DNA from: Candidatus Ventrimonas merdavium
GTDB taxonomy: Bacteria; Bacillota; Clostridia; Lachnospirales; Lachnospiraceae
Direction: 5' to 3'
DNA length: 64,000 nucleotides
NCBI GenBank assembly: GCA_018715565.1
Contig: DVLJ01000236.1
Coordinates: forward strand, 48-64,047
Shown: positions 8,749 through 42,900 of the stretch, in pieces
Numbering within the stretch: the stretch's first letter is position 1
Layout: each line of letters begins with the position of its first letter
Notes under the pieces: model-generated
What the model saw: only the letters and a program-made list of their open reading frames with translations
Databases searched by the model: none
Told to the model about the DNA's origin: nothing
Made by a program: the position numbers and the translations under genes

Positions 8749-9702
8749 TCAATCCAACTGCCGGATTCTGGGGTGGAAGGATCCGGCGGCTTTCCATAAA
8801 CTAGCATTTTCTGTCTGGTTGACCGTTCGCTCGTTCTTAGAAAAACAGAGCAAGGATTCCCACTCCACCGGAAATCCTATATGATGCAGCGAAATATCTT
8901 TCTCGTATTCTTCTATCATGGCTTTTAAAGGAATCACAAACCTGGATTCCCATTTATCCGGCTCTGGATAAAGATATTTTAAGACCAATAATTGAGTAAA
9001 TAATGTTCGGTCCGCATGGACCATACTGTTTTTGGGTATCGCCGGCATCGCCGGAAATATCCAATAATAAAGTCTGGAGTAATGAGCGCATTTGTTTCTT
9101 AGATCCGTCAGACATCTTAACCAGCTTTCCAATAACTTGGGCACAGTATCCATATCTGCAGCAATCGCTTTTTTATCCTCTGCAAGCATGTCCTTATAAA
9201 AATAGGAAAGCATACCCACAGAAAAAAACTCTATGATAACCCATATGGGGAACTGCCCGTCATAATTCTCTTTATGATGCTTTACCACTAAGGTGGATGC
9301 ATTTTCTTCAATACATGAACGTATCTTTTCTCTGAATCTCATGCTATTATGCCTGTCCGAAAACATATCCTCATTCAAATATCCCAAAGCCCCATATTTG
9401 TGCGCTGCAAAATATGCCAGTTTCGCTCGGATATTGATCTCAATATCCTCGATCGTTGAAAAAATAAGTCCCCTCAAGCGACTATCAAATTCATATATCT
9501 TTTGGATTCTGGAAAAAGTGATATTGGAAAGGTAACCGCCTTCTTTCCTGCGAAATGGAAGAAAATAAGCAGATATTCTATAATAATTGACTCGTTTCAA
9601 AAACTGGATACATTCTGACTCCTCTTGCCTAGATATCAGAAATCCCTTTTTTCTGATCAGAACAATCTGTTTTTCATAGCTAGTTGGTTCTTTAAGCTGC
9701 AA
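8749..9702 (-). CDS. Abi_2-family (AbiD/AbiF-like) abortive-infection protein
   Basis: YEKQIVLIRKKGFLI...NYYRISAYFLPF...FDSRLR...LRNKCAHYSRLY is the Abi_2 pattern. I prefer the TTG start at 9702 (AAGAGG RBS 7 nt upstream). The ORF extends to a GTG at 9753 that has no RBS. Markedly AT-rich compared with its neighbours. Confidence 0.75.
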   Translation of the reverse strand: MQLKEPTSYEKQIVLIRKKGFLISRQEESECIQFLKRVNYYRISAYFLPFRRKEGGYLSNITFSRIQKIYEFDSRLRGLIFSTIEDIEINIRAKLAYFAAHKYGALGYLNEDMFSDRHNSMRFREKIRSCIEENASTLVVKHHKENYDGQFPIWVIIEFFSVGMLSYFYKDMLAEDKKAIAADMDTVPKLLESWLRCLTDLRNKCAHYSRLYYWIFPAMPAIPKNSMVHADRTLFTQLLVLKYLYPEPDKWESRFVIPLKAMIEEYEKDISLHHIGFPVEWESLLCFSKNERTVNQTENASLWKAAGSFHPRIRQLD

Positions 9703-9792
9703 TGTGATGCCTCTTTTCCATACCTGATAAAAAAATGTCTCCCCATGGGGCACATCACTTTCGTGAGAGGTGTGGGGAGTCCTGTTGGTATT

Positions 9793-14579: not shown

Positions 14580-16013
14580 TCAATAAGCCCGGCCCCAGTA
14601 TACCATCTTCTTAGCCGGTTTGCCGCAGCATACGCAGCGATCCGAGATCTGCTCCTGCGCAAAGGGCATGCAGCGGGACGTAGCCCCCGTATCCTCTTTG
14701 ATCTTGTCCTCGCAGGCCCGGTCTCCGCACCACATGGCCTTGACAAAGCCAGGCTTCTCCTCGATGGTCTTGACAAAATCCTCGTAATTGTCCGCCGAAT
14801 AGGTGTGGCTGTCCCGATGGGCTCTTGCCCGCTCCAGCATATCCTTCTGGATGGTCTCTAACAGCTCGCCCACCTTGGCCGCGATCTCGTCTAAGGAAAC
14901 CTCGATCTTCTCGTGGGTATCCCGGCGTACCAGGACCGCCTTGCCATTCTCGATATCTCTCGGTCCGATCTCCACCCGCACCGGAATGCCGCGCATCTCG
15001 CATTCGCTGAACTTCCAGCCCGGGCTCTTGTCGGTATCGTCCACCTTCACCCGGAAGCCGGACAGCACGTCGCGCAGCTCATAAGCCTTCTCCAGAACGC
15101 CGGCCTTCTGCTGCTGCACCGGAACCACGATCACCTGGGTGGGCGCGATCCGCGGCGGCAGGACCAGACCGTTATCATCGCCGTGGGCCATGATGATGGC
15201 ACCGATCAGACGGGTGCTCACGCCCCAGGAGGTCTGGTGCACATACTGGAGGGAATTGTCCTTGGCCGCATACTGGATGCCAAAGGCCTTGGCGAATCCG
15301 TCTCCGAAGTTATGGCTGGTGCCGGACTGCAGCGCCTTCCCATCGTGCATCAGTGCCTCAATGGTATAAGTAGACTCCGCGCCTGCAAATTTCTCCTTGT
15401 CGGTCTTCTGGCCCCGGATCACCGGAATCGCCAGCACTTCCTCACAGAAATCCGCATAGATGTTCAGCATCTGGATGGTGCGCTCCTCTGCTTCCTCCGC
15501 TGTAGCGTGAGCCGTATGGCCCTCCTGCCACAAAAACTCTCTGGACCGCAGGAAGGGACGGGTAGTCTTCTCCCAGCGCACCACAGAGCACCACTGGTTG
15601 TAGACTCTGGGCAGATCCCGATAGGAGTGGATATCCTTTGCATAAAAATCACAGAACAGGGTCTCAGAAGTAGGACGGACGCACATCCGCTCCTGCAGCG
15701 GCTCCAGGCCGCCGTGGGTCACCCAGGCCACCTCCGGTGCAAAGCCTTCTACATGATCCTTCTCCTTCTGGAGCAGGCTCTCCGGGATAAAAATGGGCAT
15801 GTACACGTTCTGTACCCCGGCCGCCTTAAACCGGCGGTCCAGCTCTGCCTGGATATTCTCCCAGATCGCGTAGCCGTCCGGCTTGATCACCATGCATCCC
15901 TTTACGCTCGCGTAATCGCAGAGCTCTGCTTTCTTTACCACATCCGTGTACCACTGGGCGAAATCCACGTCCATGGATGTGATGGCTTCTACCAGTTTCT
16001 TGTCCTTTGCCAT
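14580..16013 (-). CDS. proS: Prolyl-tRNA synthetase (archaeal/eukaryote-like type without editing insertion)
   Basis: [26 protein letters not shown]..., class II motifs ([22 protein letters not shown]) and the C-terminal zinc-type CxxC...CVCCG...YWGRAY. Start at the ATG at 16013 after AAAGGAGAA. Confidence 0.92.
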
Positions 16014-16170: not shown

Positions 16171-16451
16171 AACAAAAAACACCCGGTCCCCTGCCATCTC
16201 CATGATGACGAGGGACCGGATGATCATATCATTCGGCGGTACCACCCTGATTAGCACTCCCTGTAGGGAATGCCCGCTTTCACTCCGTTAACGCCGGAAA
16301 ACACGCTGCAGTTCGCTGCAGGACTCCAGGGCCGGTTCAGCGTCCGATCGCACGAAAGCCTCTCACCTTACGGCTCTCTCTCTGGATGTGTCTGGATCGC
16401 TTACTAATCCCGTTCACCGTCTGTTCTTATGCCGGACTGGGTCCGTATGTA
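16171..16451 (-). promoter_or_regulatory. T-box leader (tRNA-sensing riboswitch) controlling proS
   Basis: On the minus strand: AGAGAGAG and GGTGAGAG stem-I elements, and a candidate specifier GAA-CCG-G (Pro codon). The conserved T-box AATCAGGGTGGTACCGCCG lies at 16231-16258. The terminator is CCGGTCCC...GGGACCGG followed by GTGTTTTTTG (16171-16219). Confidence 0.8.
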
Positions 16452-16504: not shown

Positions 16505-16762
16505 TTACTTCTGGCTCTCGTCGTAGCACTGGCGCACTGCCCTGGCCAGCTGGTCTGCGCAGGACGTATCCCGATTGCCGCAGGTGTTGCCCCGCAGGAC
16601 ACTCTCGATCTGCTCTACGGTCATACCGTTCACCAGCTTGCTGATGGCCTTTAGGTTGCCGTTGCAGCCTCTTACAAATTCAATATTCTTGACCACGTTG
16701 CCCTCTAAGTCGAAGGAGATCGACGTCGGGCAGACGTTGTGGGGTTTTACTGTATATCTCAT
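16505..16762 (-). CDS. TSCPD-domain protein (TIGR03905-type 4-Cys small protein)
   Basis: 85 aa. ISFDLEGNVVKNIEFVRGCNGNLKAISKLVNGMTVEQI...GNTCGNRDTSCADQLA is the pattern of this small conserved family. GAGGAGGAG RBS. Confidence 0.75.
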   Translation of the reverse strand: MRYTVKPHNVCPTSISFDLEGNVVKNIEFVRGCNGNLKAISKLVNGMTVEQIESVLRGNTCGNRDTSCADQLARAVRQCYDESQK

Positions 16763-16850: not shown

Positions 16851-16959
16851 TGTAAATTCCTTACTGCGCCATCATGATCCTCACGATCTCCTTGTCCGTC
16901 TGGCGCATGCCCTCCCGGCCCAGGCGGCTGACATTGCGGATCGTGGCCTCTACGCCGTT
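16851..16959. repeat. 109-bp direct repeat, copy 1 (identical to 18801-18909)
   Basis: Base-by-base reading shows 16851-16959 is identical to 18801-18909. Flanking bases differ on both sides (16850 c vs 18800 t; 16960 c vs 18910 g). Confidence 0.9.
16861..16959 (-). pseudogene. Orphan 3' fragment (last 32 codons plus stop) of the cyuA/yhaM-like gene
   Basis: Encodes NGVEATIRNVSRLGREGMRQTDKEIVRIMMAQ*, identical to the end of the intact gene at 18811-18909. No upstream coding continuation. Confidence 0.85.
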
Positions 16960-16973
16960 CTGCCTCTGTTTGC

Positions 16974-18419
16974 TTATTGCCTGTAAACCGTAATATATCT
17001 TTGATTCTGGCTTCTTGGTTTATCGGGAATTGTCATTGCCAGTAATCCGCTGTCCAGCAACGGCCGCAGATATTTTTGTGTGAAATTCTTTGTGTTTTTA
17101 TATCCGCAGTGTTCCGCAATTTCCGCCTTAGAGTGGGGTGCTTTGCAGAAAGACAAAATTTTATCTGTCATTGTCACTTGGGTTGTCACTTGGGTTGTCA
17201 CTTGGGTTGTCACTTGGGTCTTTTCCTGCGGCCCCACCTTTTCTACTGCAACAGAAGTCAAAGGGACCACTGTACGGAACACATCCCCCTCAATAAATTC
17301 CGGTGTGCCGCCAGAATAGAGTTTCGTGTATTTGTAAGTATTACGCATACCAGACCCCAGTTCGTCAGCCAGGCCGATTTCTCGGAATACCTTCGAGATC
17401 GGTGGGTTCTTGGCATAGGGTTCAAAGGAAGAAAGATGAAGCGCCCCATAGCCATGGGAACGGTTGGCATTCTCTGTGTAGAGTCTGCCCCGCTCGATGA
17501 CAAACTTTGCCACATATCCGCTTGAATAGTCCCGATGTGCCAGACTGTTAGAAAAAATCTCCCGCAGGATCCTGTCTCTGGCGCTAACGCTTTGAATCCC
17601 CTCCTGCACAAAGGGGTCGCTGAGATGCTTTTGCCCAAACGCGATCAGTCGGTCATAGCTTTCCAGAAGATTTGTGATAATCACATCCCGATCATCATAG
17701 CGGTCCAGATTCTCTACCCGGAAAATGGCGTCGGTCTTATGCTGAGGGAGGACTGACATGATGGTAGCGTCTTTTCCAAAAAGAAGGATCGCCGCAAGGG
17801 TAATACCTTCCAGCTGCCGCTCCTCATCTTTCAAGATCAGACCAGCGCTGCGAAGCATTTCTTCATCAGACATGGATTTCCAGGGATGGTTGGAGCTGCG
17901 GATAGAAGTCATGGTTCTGGCCCGTTCCATCAGATCAGAACGCAGATCATCCATCTGAAACCGGGTCACTTTATTGACGAAATAGCTGCCACTTTTCCGT
18001 GCATATAGCTGGTACACCATATCGGAATTATCCGTAATATCCATGTCAGATTCATGGTTCCGGTCAAAAATGCGTCCCCGGTGGCGGCACACCTGACTGC
18101 TGATCGGGACTTGGATGACCAGGATCGTGCGTCCATCTACAAGGTATGTTTCCGGTTGTAAGTAAAGCGGCGGATTGATTTTTTGGCCGTTATTAATGGA
18201 GGTAACAAAATCCTTTTTCATACGGTCAACCGCATCCGGGGCGATGCCAAGGATCTCCCCGTTGTCTTTCACGCCAAGGAGGATGATTCCGCCATCGCGG
18301 TTGGAAAAGGAACAAACCGTATCGTACACATCTTTGGTAATCTCATTGGTGGATTTCTTGAACTCTACGTGGATGTTTTCACCGCCATGAATGAGCTTCA
18401 GAAGTTCTGTTTCTGTCAT
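16974..18419 (-). CDS. AlbA_2 (Schlafen-like, divergent AAA) domain ATP-binding protein with a C-terminal wHTH-like region
   Basis: The N-terminus TETELLKLIHGGENIHVEFKKS...VCSFSNRDGGIILLGVKDNGEILGI is the AlbA_2 signature. The central part resembles the HATPase_c_4-type region of RecG-C-terminal-like 'putative transcriptional regulator' proteins. Start at the ATG at 18419, downstream of the promoter at 18460-18488. Confidence 0.75.
   Translation of the reverse strand: MTETELLKLIHGGENIHVEFKKSTNEITKDVYDTVCSFSNRDGGIILLGVKDNGEILGIAPDAVDRMKKDFVTSINNGQKINPPLYLQPETYLVDGRTILVIQVPISSQVCRHRGRIFDRNHESDMDITDNSDMVYQLYARKSGSYFVNKVTRFQMDDLRSDLMERARTMTSIRSSNHPWKSMSDEEMLRSAGLILKDEERQLEGITLAAILLFGKDATIMSVLPQHKTDAIFRVENLDRYDDRDVIITNLLESYDRLIAFGQKHLSDPFVQEGIQSVSARDRILREIFSNSLAHRDYSSGYVAKFVIERGRLYTENANRSHGYGALHLSSFEPYAKNPPISKVFREIGLADELGSGMRNTYKYTKLYSGGTPEFIEGDVFRTVVPLTSVAVEKVGPQEKTQVTTQVTTQVTTQVTMTDKILSFCKAPHSKAEIAEHCGYKNTKNFTQKYLRPLLDSGLLAMTIPDKPRSQNQRYITVYRQ
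17173..17219. repeat. In-frame 12-bp tandem repeat (about 4 units) inside the AlbA_2 gene
   Basis: GTCACTTGGGTT repeated four times on the plus strand. It encodes (TQVT)n: KTQVTTQVTTQVTTQVTM. Confidence 0.85.
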
Positions 18420-18459
18420 AGAGGCAACCGCCCCCTTTCCGTTTGAAATTCGCATTACT

Positions 18460-18488
18460 ATTATACGAGATTTTTCAAGGAATATCAA
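18460..18488 (-). promoter_or_regulatory. SigmaA-type promoter of the AlbA_2 cassette gene
   Basis: On the minus strand: TTGATA, 17-nt spacer, TATAAT. Confidence 0.5.
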
Positions 18489-18716
18489 TTTCATGTCCGC
18501 TTTGAGACACGGAAAAATCCAGCGAAAAATTTCATGGCAGCTGCACGCACCATGCCGCCGTACGTCAGCAAAAGCCGCACCCTGGGCCAGTCCCTCCTTT
18601 TCTATCTCCGAGGATGCCCTCCTGTAAGCATAACAGGCTCCTTTTTAATATAGTTATCTGCTCACATTTGGCGAATATGTGGAGGTCCTTGCTCCCCGAT
18701 ATGTGCGCGCGGAGAT

Positions 18717-18766
18717 CACAGAAAAACAGAGAGCCGACCACTTTGAAAATGGGAAACTCTCTGTTT
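18717..18766 (-). terminator. Intrinsic terminator downstream of the cyuA-like gene
   Basis: On the minus strand: AAACAGAGAG, 23-nt loop, CTCTCTGTTT, followed by TTCTG. Confidence 0.55.
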
Positions 18767-18800
18767 GCAATCTCGCCTTTCAGCGTTAGTAATAAGTTGT

Positions 18801-18909
18801 TGTAAATTCCTTACTGCGCCATCATGATCCTCACGATCTCCTTGTCCGTCTGGCGCATGCCCTCCCGGCCCAGGCGGCTGACATTGCGGATCGTGGCCTC
18901 TACGCCGTT
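18801..18909. repeat. 109-bp direct repeat, copy 2 (3' end of the intact cyuA-like gene plus 10 bp downstream)
   Basis: Identical to 16851-16959. Confidence 0.9.
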
Positions 18910-20115
18910 GTTGACGATGCCGTCCCCGGCCTTGAACTCCTGGCCGTTCCGGTACATGTGATACCCCAGGATCCCGGCCTGGACGCTGGAGGCGATCTTG
19001 GCGGCGCAGGACGGCTTTGCTCCGTCGCAGATGATGCCGGACACGATGGCCAGGGAATTGACCAGGGTGTGGGCGATGGCCTCATACCGCCCCCCGTACA
19101 GATAGGCGATGCCGCAGCCCGCCGCGCAGCCTGCGCTGACCGCGCCGCAGTAAGCGGAAAGCCGCCCGATCCCGGCCTTTTCATGGACCGCGATCAGATT
19201 GGAAATGGTCAGGGCCCGGTACAGCTGCTCCTTCGGCACGTTTAATTCCTTCGCATACTCGATCACCGGCACGGAAACGGTGATCCCCTGGTTGCCGCTG
19301 CCGGAATTGATGATGACCGGAAGCTCGCAGCCGCTCATCCGGGCGTCGGAACCGGCCGCCGCCTTGGCTACCGCCCGGTGCTCGATGGCGTTGCCGTAAG
19401 CCTTTAACAGGGTGGAGCCTACGTTTGCGCCGTAATCTCCCAGAAGCCCTTCCTCTGAGATCAGGGTGTTGTAGTGGATCTGCACGTCCAGGATCGGCTT
19501 GACGTCCTCCAGGTCGCAGGTCTCTGCAAAATCCAGGATGCCCTCGATCGTCAGCAGGGACTTATCCGCCAGCCCCGTTTCCTTCGGCTCTCCCTCGCTG
19601 CAGCCGATCTGCTCCGGCTGCTCCTCGGCGGCAAACAGGGTCTCCCCATTTTTCTCAATGTAGGTGATATTGGTGTGGTACTGGCTGATCCGGACCACGG
19701 CAGAATCCTCGCCGCCAAACAGAGTGATCAGGATGTCAAAGATGATGCCCGTATCCAGCGGCTTCACGCTCACAGGAACCTGCTCCAAAAAGGTCCGCAT
19801 CTCAGCCTTCTGCTCCTCTGTCACCTCGGCGATCACCTCCAGCTGACGGTCCTCCTGGCCGCCCACGATGCCGGCCACTGCCGCCGCCTCGATGCCCTTC
19901 ATCCCGTCGGTATTGGGTACGATCACGCTTTTAACATTCTTGATGATATTGTCGCTGACTCCGATCTTCACCCGGTCCGGGGTCTTCCCCAGCACCTCTC
20001 TGGCCTTTGCCGCCGCATAGGCGATGGCGATCGGCTCTGTACATCCCATAGCCGGGACCAGCTCCTCCTTTAAGATCTGTACATACGTGCTGTAACGCTT
20101 ATCTGTCCGCTCCAT
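18811..20115 (-). CDS. cyuA: L-cysteine desulfidase family protein (UPF0597, serine-dehydratase-alpha-like; YhaM/CyuA type)
   Basis: MGCTEPIAIAYAAA, SGSGNQGITVSVP, ICDGAKPSCA and MRQTDKEIVRIM are collinear with E. coli YhaM/CyuA as I recall it. Start at the ATG at 20115 after AAGGAGGA. Confidence 0.8.
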   Translation of the reverse strand: MERTDKRYSTYVQILKEELVPAMGCTEPIAIAYAAAKAREVLGKTPDRVKIGVSDNIIKNVKSVIVPNTDGMKGIEAAAVAGIVGGQEDRQLEVIAEVTEEQKAEMRTFLEQVPVSVKPLDTGIIFDILITLFGGEDSAVVRISQYHTNITYIEKNGETLFAAEEQPEQIGCSEGEPKETGLADKSLLTIEGILDFAETCDLEDVKPILDVQIHYNTLISEEGLLGDYGANVGSTLLKAYGNAIEHRAVAKAAAGSDARMSGCELPVIINSGSGNQGITVSVPVIEYAKELNVPKEQLYRALTISNLIAVHEKAGIGRLSAYCGAVSAGCAAGCGIAYLYGGRYEAIAHTLVNSLAIVSGIICDGAKPSCAAKIASSVQAGILGYHMYRNGQEFKAGDGIVNNGVEATIRNVSRLGREGMRQTDKEIVRIMMAQ

Positions 20116-20299
20116 CCTCGGATCCTCCTTTGTGGTTTTAAAGGGCACTGCCCTGCAGTACAAGCTTCCTTGTATATTCTAATCTTACTACTGATTATAT
20201 TACTAATCATATCAGTATGTCAAGAAAAACAGGCCTTCATTTTCCTCTTTTTTGCCCCATGAAAGGAAGCGGCGGGGAAAGCACGGCCTGTTCTCTGTT

Positions 20300-21658
20300 T
20301 TAAACGTGTTTTCTGGCCTCCGTGGATAAAGCGCGGTTTATCTGCCTCGCAAAAAACAGGGTGAGGAGGGCCGTCAGAAGGTCAGCCATCGGCTGTACCC
20401 ATATCACGCCGGTCAGCCCGAACAGACGCGGGAGCGCGAAAACCAAGGGGAAGAAAATGATCCCCTGCCTGCTCAGGCTCAGGACGCCTCCAACAAGGCT
20501 TTTCCCCATAGCAAGATAGAGAGACGCGTAGACCATCTCAAATCCAAATGGGAGAAAAGATACCGCACTCAGCCGGAGGGCTTTCTCTGCCAGCCCGGTC
20601 ATTTCTGGATCCGTACCAAAAAGCGCTGTGATCGGACCTGCGAAGATCATGAGGATACACGCAGCAGCCGCGCAGAATCCCGTGGTCCAGAGCATACAGA
20701 GCTTCAAAGCTCCCATTAACCGGTCAAACCGCTTCGCCCCATAGCTGTATCCTGCAAACGGCTGAAATCCTTTCAAAAATCCAAAGACAGCATAGGTTCC
20801 CACCGTCATGATGCGGGTGACCGCTCCCATCGCCGCCACCGCATGATCCCCATAAGGTTTTGACGCGGTATTGATGCTTCCTGTGGCCGCGCCTGCAAGC
20901 AATTGGAACAGGAGCACCGGGATCCCTATTTTCAGGATCTCGGCATAGATCGTTATTGACGGTGCGATCTTTTTTACAGAAATCCGCAGGACGCCTTTCC
21001 CTTTTCTCAGGTATCCCAGATAAAGCGCCATATTGATGCACAAGGACAGGACCGTTGCGGCGGCGGCTCCCTCAATGCCCAGATCCATCCCATAGATCAT
21101 GACCGGGTCCAGGATCACATTTGCCATGCTTCCCGAGAGCATGGCGATCATGGTGAACCTGGTAGCTCCCTGGGCTGTCAGCAGATTGTTCATCATGACG
21201 TTAAAGATGTTGATGACCGCGCCAGGTACGTAGATCCTGGCATACGCCTTGGCGTAAGGCAAGATCGTTTCGGTAGCTCCTAACGAAGTAAGGACCGGCT
21301 CAAGAAAGGCCATGATCCCGCAGATCACAGCTGCGCCGGCCAGCAGCCCTGAAAAAAGCGCAGTGGAAGCGGTCCTGCCGGCTTGTTCTAGGTCTCCCTT
21401 CCCCAACAGGCGGGATATGTAGGACGAAGCCCCCGCCCCAAACATCATTCCCAAGCCGATCACGATCTGGACGATCGGGAACACCACCGATACCGCTCCC
21501 ATCTGGCTCATCCCAAGGCCGCCCACAAAATATGCGTCGATCGCGTTGTACAGCGCGGAAATGAGCATCCCCAGCATCGTTGGTATCCCCAGCTTAAGGA
21601 GCGCAGGCGCGATCTTTGCCTCCTCCAATAAGTAGATCCGATCTGATTGTTCTTTCAT
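20300..21658 (-). CDS. MATE-family efflux transporter
   Basis: 452 aa, 12 TM helices. N-terminus LLKLGIPTMLGMLISALYNAIDAYFVG is typical of MATE/NorM. AAAGGAGGAA RBS. Confidence 0.88.
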   Translation of the reverse strand: MKEQSDRIYLLEEAKIAPALLKLGIPTMLGMLISALYNAIDAYFVGGLGMSQMGAVSVVFPIVQIVIGLGMMFGAGASSYISRLLGKGDLEQAGRTASTALFSGLLAGAAVICGIMAFLEPVLTSLGATETILPYAKAYARIYVPGAVINIFNVMMNNLLTAQGATRFTMIAMLSGSMANVILDPVMIYGMDLGIEGAAAATVLSLCINMALYLGYLRKGKGVLRISVKKIAPSITIYAEILKIGIPVLLFQLLAGAATGSINTASKPYGDHAVAAMGAVTRIMTVGTYAVFGFLKGFQPFAGYSYGAKRFDRLMGALKLCMLWTTGFCAAAACILMIFAGPITALFGTDPEMTGLAEKALRLSAVSFLPFGFEMVYASLYLAMGKSLVGGVLSLSRQGIIFFPLVFALPRLFGLTGVIWVQPMADLLTALLTLFFARQINRALSTEARKHV

Positions 21659-21678
21659 TTGAAATTCCTCCTTTTAAA

Positions 21679-21696
21679 ATTGAACATTAGTTCAAT
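21679..21696. promoter_or_regulatory. Palindromic operator candidate (TetR site) upstream of the MATE gene
   Basis: ATTGAAC-ATTA-GTTCAAT. Shares TTGAAC-N4-GTTCAA half-sites with 22309-22324. Confidence 0.5.
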
Positions 21697-21722
21697 ATTG
21701 TTCGATAAAAAAAGGAACTGGC

Positions 21723-22292
21723 CTAAAGACCAATCCCTGATAAATACATTTTCGATAATTGATATAGGATCCTCACGGCCCATTCCTTTCCTCGGTAATG
21801 ATACATGATCTGCATCAGTCCATCTACAAAGTTATTCGCGATAATGTGGAAAAACACCTCGTCGTATCGCGCATCATCCCGATGCTTCTGCAGGTGGGCT
21901 TCTACGTCCCTGATAAAGCGTTCTCTTTCATGCTCATACTTCGTGCCTTCGCTTTTATCGATCAAGATGATAAATTCCTTCCGATGCTCGAACAGATTGA
22001 GGATACAGTCAGCCTCTGCCTTGCTGAGACCGTAGATCTCGCTGTCTGTATGCCTCGCTCCGTCCTTGTCCCCCGCCGTCAGCACCCGCTCCCAGTCGTA
22101 CCGGACAGGGCTTAAGACAGCGTCGAACAGCGCTTCTTTGCTTTGATAATAGGAATAGATCAATCCTGTAGGGATCATCGCCTGCTTCGCGATACTGCGC
22201 ATAGCCGTCGCGCGGTAGCCCTTGTCATAAAACTCCTGCAGCGCGGCGCTGAGTATCCTTTCCCGAATCTCTTCTTTCAGTACCTGAGCCAT
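21723..22292 (-). CDS. TetR/AcrR-family transcriptional regulator
   Basis: The N-terminal HTH region IRERILSAALQEFYDKGYRATAMRSIAKQAMIPTGLIYSYYQSKEALF. Start at the ATG at 22292. Confidence 0.85.
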   Translation of the reverse strand: MAQVLKEEIRERILSAALQEFYDKGYRATAMRSIAKQAMIPTGLIYSYYQSKEALFDAVLSPVRYDWERVLTAGDKDGARHTDSEIYGLSKAEADCILNLFEHRKEFIILIDKSEGTKYEHERERFIRDVEAHLQKHRDDARYDEVFFHIIANNFVDGLMQIMYHYRGKEWAVRILYQLSKMYLSGIGL

Positions 22293-22308
22293 CTGTATCT
22301 CTCCAATA

Positions 22309-22324
22309 TTGAACTTAAGTTCAA
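22309..22324. promoter_or_regulatory. Palindromic operator candidate (TetR autoregulation site)
   Basis: Perfect palindrome TTGAAC-TTAA-GTTCAA, 17 nt upstream of the TetR start codon. Confidence 0.5.
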
Positions 22325-22368
22325 GTATAACCTCCGGCCAAGGATCTGTCAAGCCCCTTATCCCTCAC

Positions 22369-22644
22369 CTAATCATTATCCGGCAGCAGCTTGATATGCA
22401 CCATGATGTTCCGCACAAAGCTCCCTTCCGGCAGCTCCATATCCTCGTGGTGGGTCTGGGACGGGAACTCGCCGCCGTCCTCTAACTCCACCCAGAGCCA
22501 GTTATAGGCCGCGTCCCGGGCCGCCTCCAGGGCGTCCTCTAAGTCCGGTCCGTCGGCCTCGCAGCACTCCAGGTCCGGAAATACCACATGGTAACCGTTG
22601 TCATCTTGATGCGGTGTAAATACCGCCGGGTAAGTAAATGTCAT
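22369..22644 (-). CDS. HicB-like antitoxin-fold protein (N-terminal domain only)
   Basis: 91 aa. YPAVFTPHQDDNGYHVVFPDLECCEADGPDLEDALEAARDAAYNWL is the HicB_like pattern. 4-nt ATGA overlap with the rarA stop. Confidence 0.7.
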   Translation of the reverse strand: MTFTYPAVFTPHQDDNGYHVVFPDLECCEADGPDLEDALEAARDAAYNWLWVELEDGGEFPSQTHHEDMELPEGSFVRNIMVHIKLLPDND

Positions 22645-42729: not shown

Positions 42730-42900
42730 GTCTCCTTTCCGGTCCTTATGTAAGCGGCGGCAGTCGTCTGCAGTTCTCCCGCGCCGCCTCAGGCTGCCCT
42801 GAATCTATTGGAAGCACCAGCTGTATGCGGATTTTCCGGCTTGCATCGTGTTCCCAGTCATTCGGAGGGTCCGGACCGTTATAGGATAGTATATCCGTAA

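What the first reader, a model, noticed from the sequence alone, without database searches (positions are those of the whole stretch)
16851..18909. Perfect 109-bp direct repeats bracket a low-GC single-gene cassette inserted into the 3' end of the cysteine desulfidase gene
16851-16959 and 18801-18909 are identical base for base, and the flanking bases differ on both sides. The repeat comprises the last 32 codons plus stop of the cyuA/yhaM-like gene and 10 bp downstream. One copy therefore completes the intact gene, and the other is an orphan 3' fragment next to the TSCPD gene.

The 1841 bp between the copies is visibly AT-richer than the flanks. It carries a single gene for an AlbA_2/Schlafen-like ATPase with a consensus promoter (TTGATA-17-TATAAT). 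That gene's stop codon lies only 15 bp from the repeat boundary.

This is the footprint of integration of a circular element by recombination within the 3' end of a gene, restoring that gene. However, no integrase, transposase or relaxase is present. Possible explanations are an element mobilised in trans, a decayed island, or homology-driven cassette capture. AlbA_2/Schlafen-type ATPases often occur in accessory or defence neighbourhoods, so the cargo may be a stand-alone defence or stress gene.
Basis: partly seen in the sequence, partly recalled or inferred. Interest (0 to 1): 0.65.

Follow-up and report, generated by a model that had tools for sequence, protein, structure and literature searches.

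The report
Decayed mobile-element remnant behind cyuA
A single foreign gene, left over from a conjugative-type mobile element, sits behind a chicken-gut bacterium's cysteine-desulfidase-like gene between two copies of that gene's last 109 bases; it is a real, old insertion, fixed in every contig sampled, of a familiar kind, not an active novelty.

Summary
Window 16851-16959 and 18801-18909 are identical over 109 bp: the last 32 codons, the stop and 10 bp of the SDH_alpha/cyuA-like gene. They bracket 1841 bp of lower-GC DNA (0.48 against 0.57) that carries one AlbA_2/wHTH gene with a near-consensus promoter.

It is not an assembly artefact. At least 17 independent metagenome contigs carry it, and the repeat unitig has about 1.2-2 times the depth of its flanks in six runs.

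Related species have the predicted empty site, cyuA-TSCPD-proS with one copy. Every sampled contig of this species has the insert. That includes a sister clade (about 98% identity) whose two copies have diverged (4 mismatches and 1 indel) and which keeps about 100 extra bp.

Close homologues of the cargo (91% aa, 86% nt) lie divergently beside a MOB relaxase in conjugative-element neighbourhoods. The window keeps what looks like a degenerate 19-21-codon stub of that relaxase gene.

Best reading: a CIME-like remnant of an integrative conjugative or mobilizable element. It entered at the 3' end of cyuA, restored the gene, then lost everything except one selected gene (dN/dS about 0.05). No current mobility was seen, but the data could not have detected it. 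A defence role is unsupported. This is a new member of a known kind, of modest interest.

The parts
18811..20115 (-). Target gene: 434-aa SDH_alpha / UPF0597 (YhaM/CyuA-like) protein, intact.
   Evidence: Pfam PF03313 at 218 bits. Orthologues of 75-87% aa identity occur in related Lachnospiraceae-type MAGs. 'Cysteine desulfidase' is a family-level inference and was not tested here.
18801..18909 (-). R1: the repeat copy that completes cyuA (32 codons, stop, 10 bp). In the integration model this is the attL-like junction.
   Evidence: The last 99 bp of cyuA is as similar to its orthologues as the rest of the gene: 0.79 against 0.65-0.85 per 100 bp versus L194, and 0.85 against 0.71-0.90 versus L021.
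18591..18800 (.). 210-bp non-coding stretch of unknown origin between R1 and the relaxase stub. It holds terminator-like hairpins: an inverted repeat at 18724-18766 (read on the minus strand, just after cyuA) and a plus-strand hairpin with a T-run at 18621-18637.
   Evidence: No match outside this species among the 187 loci then held, nor in plasmids or phages, and a 24-mer gave nothing in viral contigs. Hairpins. Inferred to be the terminal arm of the lost element.
18534..18590 (+). Degenerate 5' stub that looks like the start of a MOB relaxase gene (MAAARTMPPYVSKSRTLGQ...), divergent from the cargo gene.
   Evidence: blastn homology to the relaxase-AlbA_2 arrangement in L182/L188 runs 171 bp upstream of the cargo ATG and stops at 18590. 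The ATG is in register. 44 of 67 nt match; 9 of 21 aa match L182/L188 (MATTRIIPLHVGKGRTESQAI) and 10 of 21 match L186. On its own the peptide match is weak (tblastn E about 0.1-0.2).
18460..18488 (-). Promoter of the cargo gene, TTGATA-17-TATAAT. It lies in the short intergenic region shared with the relaxase-linked copies.
   Evidence: 11 of 12 matches. The region is conserved in all seven homologous contexts.
16974..18419 (-). Cargo: 481-aa AlbA_2 (Schlafen-like) N-domain, poorly modelled middle region, (TQVT)4 linker, C-terminal winged-helix domain (Fic-like_C).
   Evidence: Pfam. RBS GGAAAGGGGG upstream of the ATG at 18419. dN/dS 0.048 against the sister clade (12 synonymous, 2 non-synonymous changes) and 0.06-0.10 against copies of about 86-88% nt identity. 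Best solved-structure match is the uncharacterised 3LMM, followed by Schlafen and SAMD9 N-domains. RNA contigs in one metatranscriptome.
17171..17218 (-). In-frame 12-bp tandem repeat (TQVT) inside the cargo gene, with variable copy number.
   Evidence: Three, four or five copies in L004, the window and L010 respectively.
16851..16959 (-). R2: orphan copy of the cyuA 3' end. Its downstream side is the ancestral cyuA-TSCPD junction. In the integration model this is the attR-like junction.
   Evidence: The alignment to the empty site in L194 starts exactly at 16959 and runs through the TSCPD promoter and gene. In the sister clade R2 carries a 1-bp deletion and is preceded by about 100 extra bp.
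16505..16762 (-). TSCPD (TIGR03905) gene with its own promoter TTGACA-17-TATGAT at 16828-16800. This is the chromosomal flank, not part of the insert.
   Evidence: The cyuA-TSCPD-proS order is seen without the insert in L194-L196 and L193.
16208..16426 (-). T-box leader of proS (proS lies at 14580-16013, minus strand). It marks the downstream conserved flank.
   Evidence: Rfam RF00230 at 81.8 bits, E 1.8e-17, below the gathering score of 93. Homologous to L021 from window 16487 downward.

Best explanation
The 1.84-kb block is the decayed remnant of an integrative conjugative or mobilizable element. [quoted passage not shown]

Inferred history: in an ancestor of this species, a circular element carrying a copy of the last about 109 bp of cyuA recombined with the chromosomal cyuA 3' end. 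The most likely agent is a tyrosine-type integrase that has since been lost. This left cyuA intact (R1) and an orphan 3' end (R2) joined to the old cyuA-TSCPD spacer. Internal deletions then removed the integration and transfer genes. What remains is a non-coding arm, what looks like the first about 19 codons of the relaxase gene, and the divergently transcribed AlbA_2/wHTH gene with its promoter.

That gene has been kept by purifying selection. It was present in every contig sampled from the species, and the remnant shows no sign of moving.

Shown: the repeat, the insertion, the empty site, the links between the cargo and conjugative-element neighbourhoods, the presence of the insert in every sampled contig, and the selection on the gene. 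Less certain: the identity of the relaxase stub. Inferred: the integrase, the site-specific mechanism and the deletions.
For: 1. The repeat is real and present in two copies.

2. The empty site exists in related species. L194-L196 have cyuA-116 bp-TSCPD-proS, and L193 has SDH_alpha-TSCPD. The window-L194 alignment ends at the cyuA stop (18811) and resumes exactly at 16959.

3. The geometry is that of a gene-end-restoring integration. The duplicated block runs from codon -32 to 10 bp past the stop, in direct orientation. A review (PMC5704250) describes IMEs that integrate in the 3' end of housekeeping genes with one flanking repeat including the gene end. It also describes decay of an ICE or IME to a CIME that keeps attL and attR.

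4. The cargo has conjugative-element relatives. Copies of 91% aa and 85.6% nt identity lie 101 bp from, and divergent to, a PF03432 relaxase, next to DUF3801, DUF5720, DUF6017, ParB and ParA (L182-185, L188-190, L197). An 84% aa copy lies next to a relaxase, NikA/MobC and AbiEii (L186).

5. Homology to those arrangements continues 171 bp upstream of the cargo ATG, into the start of the relaxase gene, with the ATG in register.

6. Insert GC is 0.48, the same as the relaxase-linked copy of the gene (0.49), against 0.57 for the host.

7. The gene is under purifying selection: dN/dS 0.048. There are RNA contigs in one metatranscriptome.

8. The insertion is old and has stayed in place. The sister clade has it at the same position with 4 mismatches and 1 indel between its copies.
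Against: - No integrase or excisionase is present in or next to the insert.
- No element with an integrase was seen behind cyuA. The downstream ORFs of 32 loci with close cyuA relatives, out of 160 cyuA loci fetched, were screened; only the top 25 Pfam families were visible.
- The 210-bp arm and the sister clade's extra about 100 bp match nothing outside this species, so the parent element is unidentified.
- At 109 bp the identity block is longer than the 8-60 bp the review calls usual for IMEs.
- The cyuA 3' end looks fully native, with no mosaic signal. That is what RecA-mediated or duplicative insertion would give. The site-specific model then needs an element that already carried this species' own sequence.
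- The relaxase-linked homologous regions seen here also show no integrase and no flanking repeats within 10 kb.
- The relaxase stub is short and degenerate: 9-10 of 21 aa match, and tblastn alone gives E about 0.1-0.2. It is credible mainly through its position and the continuous nucleotide alignment.
Confidence: 0.55

Rival explanations
1. The DNA is the same foreign, conjugative-element-derived fragment, but it entered without a dedicated integrase. One route is a RecA-mediated single crossover (Campbell type) between the chromosome and a circular molecule that had picked up about 109 bp of this species' cyuA 3' end. The other is an illegitimate, repair-associated insertion that duplicated 109 bp of target sequence. 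In this reading the repeats are not att sites.
For: - Both copies are host-like, with no mosaic divergence in the cyuA 3' end.
- By parsimony the two copies were identical, or nearly so, at the split of the two clades.
- No integrase and no cyuA-targeting element was found.
- Other solitary copies of the gene (L181, L191, L192) sit at unrelated loci. No flanking repeats were found around L181, the only solitary locus scanned. So this gene family reaches chromosomes by more than one route.
Against: - The duplicated block ends 10 bp past the stop codon, so the gene is exactly restored. That is the hallmark of attP mimicry. It would be a coincidence under random duplication.
- It is not explained how a circular molecule would come to carry precisely this host segment.
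- Target duplications of about 100 bp are not a known product of bacterial transposition.
Confidence: 0.27
2. The cassette is still mobile. It would be a functional cis- or trans-mobilizable unit that is excised and re-inserted by an integrase encoded elsewhere (a resident or incoming ICE), with the perfect repeats as active att sites.
For: - The repeats are perfect 109-bp copies in the window clade.
- The relaxase-cargo intergenic region, where oriT sites often lie (own knowledge), is retained.
- CIME accretion and mobilisation are documented elsewhere (PMC5704250).
Against: - No contig of this species read here shows the empty site. The insert has the same depth as its flanks in eight runs.
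- The sister clade's repeats have decayed. Single-copy polymorphisms are accumulating in R1 or R2 separately (L001/L002; X13).
- The insert DNA was not found in any other context.
- Limitation: k=31 unitigs cannot reveal excision across a 109-bp repeat, and no raw-read or long-read run was available.
Confidence: 0.08
3. There was no insertion. The structure would be either an assembly artefact, or an old local duplication or second cyuA paralogue reduced to its 3' end.
For: Short-read assemblies can mis-join at repeats. The sister clade's copies are diverged, as an old duplication would be.
Against: - There are at least 17 independent assemblies. The repeat has about 1.2-2 times the flank depth, with all four junction unitigs present. 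k141 contigs run through both sister-clade copies. An RNA contig spans R1.
- Related species have one copy and no cargo.
- The DNA between the copies is foreign in composition. It is homologous to a gene of conjugative-element neighbourhoods and appears to include the start of their relaxase gene.
Confidence: 0.02

Closest known systems
CIMEs (cis-mobilizable elements), e.g. those at the 3' end of fda in Streptococcus thermophilus. Defined in PMC5704250 as elements that have lost their integration and transfer genes but kept attL and attR.
   Same: Direct repeats flank the block and one of them carries the end of an intact target gene. There are no integrase, excisionase or transfer genes. There are internal traces of a conjugative-element origin (a likely relaxase stub, and a cargo gene shared with relaxase neighbourhoods).
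   Different: The cognate ICE or IME and its integrase are unknown, so the repeats are not shown to be att sites. The repeat is 109 bp, against the usual 8-60 bp. The target (cyuA-like 3' end) is not among the sites in the part of that review's table that I read. The block is reduced to a single gene and was present in every contig sampled from the species.
Integrative elements that restore a protein gene by carrying a copy of its 3' end. Examples are e14 / phage 21 in icd of E. coli, and IMEs or ICEs in the 3' ends of guaA, trmE, rpsI, rplL and others. The icd case is from own knowledge; the others are listed in PMC5704250.
   Same: The duplicated block starts inside the coding region and ends just past the stop codon. 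The gene stays functional and an orphan 3' end marks the far junction.
   Different: Those elements still carry their integrase. Here the two copies are identical and fully host-like, whereas element-borne copies are often diverged.
AlbA_2 - HATPase_c_4-like - wHTH proteins (the COG2865-type 'putative DNA-binding / RecG-related' family). The solved example is DIP2311 of Corynebacterium diphtheriae (PDB 3LMM), whose function is unknown.
   Same: The cargo has the same domain order. Pfam AlbA_2 and Fic-like_C score above threshold. 3LMM is the top structural match (E 5e-15). PHROG 12156 matches over the full length.
   Different: No member has a tested function. Here the HATPase_c_4 match is below threshold and the middle region is poorly modelled. 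The Schlafen and SAMD9 similarity is confined to the N-domain fold.

Membership tests
CIME (decayed ICE/IME that retains attL/attR) | Flanked by direct repeats, one of which includes the end of the intact target gene. | tested here: met
   a 109-bp direct repeat, with R1 completing cyuA. The empty site has a single copy.
CIME (decayed ICE/IME that retains attL/attR) | No integration or excision genes and no transfer genes. | tested here: met
   One complete gene only. The relaxase is reduced to a stub of about 19 codons.
CIME (decayed ICE/IME that retains attL/attR) | Derived from an ICE or IME by deletion. | tested here: inconclusive
   A likely relaxase stub is in register with the relaxase-AlbA_2 arrangement, and the cargo has relaxase-linked homologues of 84-91% aa identity. 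The parent element itself was not found.
CIME (decayed ICE/IME that retains attL/attR) | The repeats are att sites recognised by the integrase of a related element (excision or accretion). | not testable with these tools
   No integrase-bearing element was seen behind cyuA in the 32 close-relative loci screened, out of 160 fetched. Unitigs cannot show excision across a 109-bp repeat.
ICE / IME (functional) | Encodes its own integrase, and for most IMEs a relaxase or an oriT. | tested here: not met
   There is no recombinase ORF in 16960-18800. The relaxase is truncated.
Transposon / insertion sequence | Transposase, terminal inverted repeats and a short target-site duplication. | tested here: not met
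   There is no transposase and no terminal inverted repeats at the insert ends. The duplication is 109 bp.
Known anti-phage defence systems (PADLOC-DB 2.0) | The protein matches a defence-system component over most of its model, with partner genes where required. | tested here: not met
   Only partial hits: the pAgo model over positions 47-241 of 1121 (E 1e-9) and Aga_SIR2 over positions 323-479 of 876 (E 1e-7). There are no partner genes.
AlbA_2 / Schlafen-like domain proteins (Pfam PF04326) | Domain match above the curated threshold, with fold agreement. | tested here: met
   67 bits against a cut-off of 25.3. The N-domain pLDDT is about 90. Matches include 2KYY and the SLFN11/13/5 and SAMD9 N-domains.
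GHKL-type ATPase (HATPase_c_4, PF13749) | Domain match above the curated threshold. | tested here: inconclusive
   21.8 bits against a cut-off of 26. This region has pLDDT below 50 in the model.

The most novel reading that the evidence does not exclude
The block is not dead. R1 and R2 would be working att sites of an as yet unsampled integrase-bearing element that targets the 3' end of cyuA-like genes. The retained relaxase-cargo intergenic region would hold an oriT. The AlbA_2/wHTH protein, found beside relaxases and, under strong purifying selection, as a solitary chromosomal gene at four or more unrelated loci, would be a stand-alone protective or exclusion factor that conjugative elements leave behind in their hosts.
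Probability: 0.08. Interest if true: 0.6.

Novelty: new member of a known kind. Interest (0 to 1): 0.3.

Why it matters
It gives a clean, dated example of how a gut Firmicute keeps one useful gene from a conjugative-type element while discarding the rest.

- The junction repeats, the likely relaxase stub and the empty sites in sister species document the whole path.
- It points to the 3' end of the cyuA-like gene as a possible integration site worth checking in complete Lachnospiraceae genomes.
- It flags the relaxase-adjacent AlbA_2/wHTH family as a conserved, selected and functionally untested gene: several thousand scored homologues, with solitary copies at several loci.

It does not reveal a new kind of mobile element or a new mechanism.

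Tried and rejected
- **Parent element by DNA similarity.** The insert against PLSDB plasmids gave no match. Against phages it gave one irrelevant 65% hit to a Mycoplasma phage helicase gene.
- **The 210-bp arm, the sister clade's extra segment, the R2-TSCPD spacer and the TSCPD gene against the 187 loci then held.** Nothing matched outside this species.
- **Exact-word scans of viral contigs.** I scanned for the hairpin, for a 24-mer of the arm, and for a degenerate pattern of the cyuA C-terminus. All three gave zero hits.
- **Integrases downstream of cyuA in relatives.** 48 representative ORFs from 32 loci were scanned against Pfam. No recombinase appeared among the 25 families listed; one IS200 transposase did. 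50 further families were not shown, so this is only a weak negative.
- **Remnants of other conjugative-element genes in the insert.** tblastn with relaxase, DUF3801, HTH_31, AbiEii and others found only the relaxase N-terminus, at E about 0.1-0.2.
- **Flanking repeats around the homologous islands L181, L182, L186 and L188.** None were found.
- **Extending the relaxase-linked island to 10 kb per side.** No integrase was reached. The island abuts recN.
- **Long-read runs.** None were available. Logan unitigs (k=31) cannot distinguish filled from excised forms across a 109-bp repeat.
- **Literature on AlbA_2 or HATPase_c_4 with relaxases.** Nothing relevant turned up.
- **TSCPD as part of the insert.** I considered this because L021 lacks TSCPD. 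I rejected it after finding cyuA-TSCPD-proS without the insert in L193-L196.
- **One script timed out** and was rerun with blastn.
Full report
**1. Observation**

Window 16851-16959 and 18801-18909 are identical over 109 bp, and the bases just outside differ at both ends. All genes in this stretch are on the minus strand. In gene order they are:
- a 434-aa SDH_alpha/UPF0597 (YhaM/CyuA-like) gene at 18811-20115;
- a 481-aa AlbA_2 gene at 16974-18419;
- an 85-aa TSCPD (TIGR03905) gene at 16505-16762;
- a T-box leader at 16208-16426;
- proS at 14580-16013.

The repeat is exactly the last 32 codons, the stop and 10 bp of the first gene. Copy R1 (18801-18909) completes that gene. Copy R2 (16851-16959) is an orphan.

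The 1841 bp between the copies has GC 0.479, against 0.574 for the window. The cargo promoter TTGATA-17-TATAAT is at 18488-18460. 'ATPase' rests on a sub-threshold HATPase_c_4 hit (21.8 bits, cut-off 26). 'No relaxase' overlooks a likely stub (section 4).

**2. Not an artefact**

- Look-ups by the exact TSCPD protein and by the exact cargo protein read 21 and 17 contigs. The two sets overlap. The contigs come from independent metagenome assemblies (chicken gut, sludge and others). All places shown have cyuA-AlbA_2-TSCPD-proS.
- In eight DNA runs the Logan unitigs break at the repeat. All four junction unitigs are present at similar depth, and the insert has the same depth as the flanks. In the six runs that list the 109-bp unitig, it has about 1.2-2 times the flank depth. 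Examples: 19.8 against 10-12, 21 against 9-12, and 11.7 against 4.5-6.9.
- k141 MEGAHIT contigs of the sister clade run through both copies, which are diverged there.
- A 209-nt contig in a metatranscriptome covers 18720-18928 and so spans R1.

**3. Distribution**

Within the species there are two clades, about 98% identical across the locus, with dS 0.038 in the cargo gene.

The sister clade (L004, L007, L008, L010) has the insert at the same place, with two differences:
- Its copies differ by 4 mismatches and a 1-bp deletion in R2.
- It has about 100 extra bp between the cargo stop and R2. This segment includes the near-perfect 27-nt palindromic hairpin AATTGGCTTACAgcTTGTAAGCCAATT.

No contig read from the species shows the empty site.

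Related species do show it:
- L194-L196 (cyuA 78% nt, TSCPD 82% aa) have RarA-HicB-cyuA-116 bp-TSCPD-proS.
- L193 (TSCPD 89% aa) has HicB-SDH_alpha-TSCPD.
- The window-L194 alignment ends at the cyuA stop (18811). It resumes exactly at 16959, runs through R2, and continues into the conserved TSCPD promoter.
- L021, the relative with the most similar cyuA (87% aa), has cyuA followed 15 bp later by the proS leader and lacks TSCPD as well.

So this is an insertion with duplication, specific to this species. It is older than the split of the two clades.

**4. Origin of the cargo**

The protein has several thousand scored homologues (3624 at E <= 0.001 among the 8000 candidates scored).

Relaxase-linked copies:
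- Copies of 91% aa and 85.6% nt identity lie 101 bp from, and divergent to, a PF03432 relaxase. Their neighbours are DUF3801, DUF5720, DUF6017, ParB and ParA (L182-185, L188-190, L197-198).
- An 84% aa copy lies beside a relaxase in a region with NikA/MobC, AbiEii and a large SNF2-type protein (L186).

Nucleotide homology between the window and these arrangements runs from 13-21 bp after the cargo stop to 171 bp upstream of its ATG. That reaches into the first codons of the relaxase gene.

Window 18534-18590 (plus strand) reads MAAARTMPPYVSKSRTLGQ, against MATTRIIPLHVGKGRTESQ in the relaxases. The ATG is in register, 44 of 67 nt match, and 9 of 21 aa match L182/L188 (10 of 21 for L186). The stub is short and degenerate, and tblastn on its own gives only E about 0.1-0.2. 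Its position, and the fact that it is continuous with the strong alignment, make chance unlikely.

Beyond the stub, 18591-18800 matches nothing found.

Solitary copies of 83-93% aa identity sit at unrelated chromosomal loci (L181, L191, L192). No flanking repeats were found around L181, the only solitary locus I scanned.

In all contexts only the gene, about 70-100 bp of promoter and no more than about 20 bp of trailer are shared.

**5. Age and repeat evolution**

The cargo gene is under strong purifying selection. Between the clades there are 12 synonymous and 2 non-synonymous changes (dN/dS 0.048). Against copies of about 86-88% nt identity, dN/dS is 0.06-0.10.

By parsimony, the five differences between R1 and R2 in the sister clade are all derived in that lineage. 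The copies were therefore identical, or nearly so, at the split.

From dS, I estimate about 2-3 differences between the copies in the window lineage. Zero are observed, which is only mildly unusual.

At repeat position 66, both window copies have C, while both sister-clade copies and L021 have T. This is a hint of gene conversion or a parallel change.

Single-copy polymorphisms also exist: L001/L002 in R1, and run X13 in R2.

The last 99 bp of cyuA is no more diverged from its orthologues than the rest of the gene. So the duplicated sequence is native, not a foreign mimic.

**6. Mechanism**

Best reading (confidence 0.55): a circular ICE or IME that carried this gene end integrated at the cyuA 3' end, probably through a tyrosine-type integrase. 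It restored the gene. Deletions then left a non-coding arm, the likely relaxase stub and the cargo gene. The result is a CIME-like remnant.
- The geometry, with the block ending 10 bp past the stop, is what gene-end-restoring attP sites produce.
- The review PMC5704250 describes both integration into the 3' end of housekeeping genes and decay to CIMEs.

Main rival (confidence 0.27): the same foreign fragment entered by homologous or illegitimate recombination that duplicated 109 bp of host DNA. Three observations favour it:
- the repeat sequence is native;
- no integrase and no cyuA-targeting element was found;
- at 109 bp the repeat exceeds the usual 8-60 bp.

A still-mobile cassette (confidence 0.08) has nothing in its favour in these data, because every sampled contig carries the insert and the sister clade's repeats have decayed. 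The available data could not have detected excision, so it is not excluded.

An artefact or an old paralogue (confidence 0.02) is excluded.

**7. Cargo function**

The domain order is:
- an AlbA_2/Schlafen-like N-domain (pLDDT about 90);
- a poorly modelled middle region with a weak GHKL-like signal;
- a variable (TQVT)n linker;
- a C-terminal winged helix.

The best solved relative is the uncharacterised DIP2311 (3LMM). After it come the N-domains of Schlafen 5/11/13/14 and the SAMD9 tRNase.

PADLOC gives only partial domain hits. NCBIfam gives none. PHROGs gives a 'DNA helicase' family that is named by annotation only.

My inference, which is untested: it is a nucleic-acid-binding regulator or nuclease-like factor that serves the conjugative element, given its divergent promoter shared with the relaxase. 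The host would keep it because it is useful. A defence role is possible but unsupported.

RNA contigs in one chicken-gut metatranscriptome suggest the gene is transcribed. DNA carry-over cannot be excluded.

**8. Verdict**

Present mobility, the defence role and the ATPase label are not supported.

This is a new member of a known kind, a CIME-like remnant, possibly at a previously unlisted target. Interest: 0.3.

Noticed in passing
window 17171-17218 (inside the AlbA_2 gene): An in-frame 12-bp tandem repeat encoding (TQVT)n. Strains of the same species have 3, 4 or 5 copies (proteins of 477, 481 or 485 aa). Homologues carry related but different repeats at the same linker, just before the C-terminal winged helix.
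   Followed up: partly
window about 20230-22378 (TetR 21723-22352, MatE 20300-21658): A second lineage-specific block lies directly upstream of cyuA. In L021, L193 and L194 HicB is followed directly by cyuA, so the TetR-MatE pair is absent there. Part of the block has low GC (0.41-0.43).
   Followed up: partly
L004 9700-9807, and the same place in L007, L008 and L010: The sister clade has about 100 extra bp between the cargo stop and R2, including a near-perfect 27-nt palindromic hairpin. The window clade lacks this segment, and its repeat is 3 bp longer at that end. A sister-clade-type loose end is also seen in sludge run X7.
   Followed up: partly
window 16208-16426 (-): T-box leader upstream of proS. 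It scores 81.8 bits, below Rfam's gathering score of 93, so the default scan missed it.
   Followed up: yes
window 8749-9753 (-): An Abi_2-family gene is present in the window clade but absent from the sister clade (in L004, L001's 456-aa ORF is followed directly by the phosphoglucomutase gene). It is a strain-variable accessory gene about 7 kb from the finding.
   Followed up: no
L193 457-2217: Its TSCPD protein is 89% identical to the window's, but the adjacent SDH_alpha gene is only about 64% identical at the nucleotide level. The locus is therefore mosaic between relatives.
   Followed up: no
L192 7926-11425: An 83% aa homologue of the cargo gene lies about 2 kb from another TSCPD gene, in an unrelated chromosomal context rich in GNAT genes. 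Probably a coincidence.
   Followed up: no
L188 and L197 (relaxase-AlbA_2-DUF3801-ParB-ParA islands): These islands of conjugative-element type abut recN on one side. They differ on the other side (an RHS toxin in one, MazE-like and DUF6809 genes in the other). No integrase or flanking repeats were seen within 10 kb, so they too may be decayed elements.
   Followed up: partly
window 42747-42821 (-): COG2827 RNA motif (RF02938, 53.3 bits). It was the only Rfam hit above threshold in the whole window.
   Followed up: no
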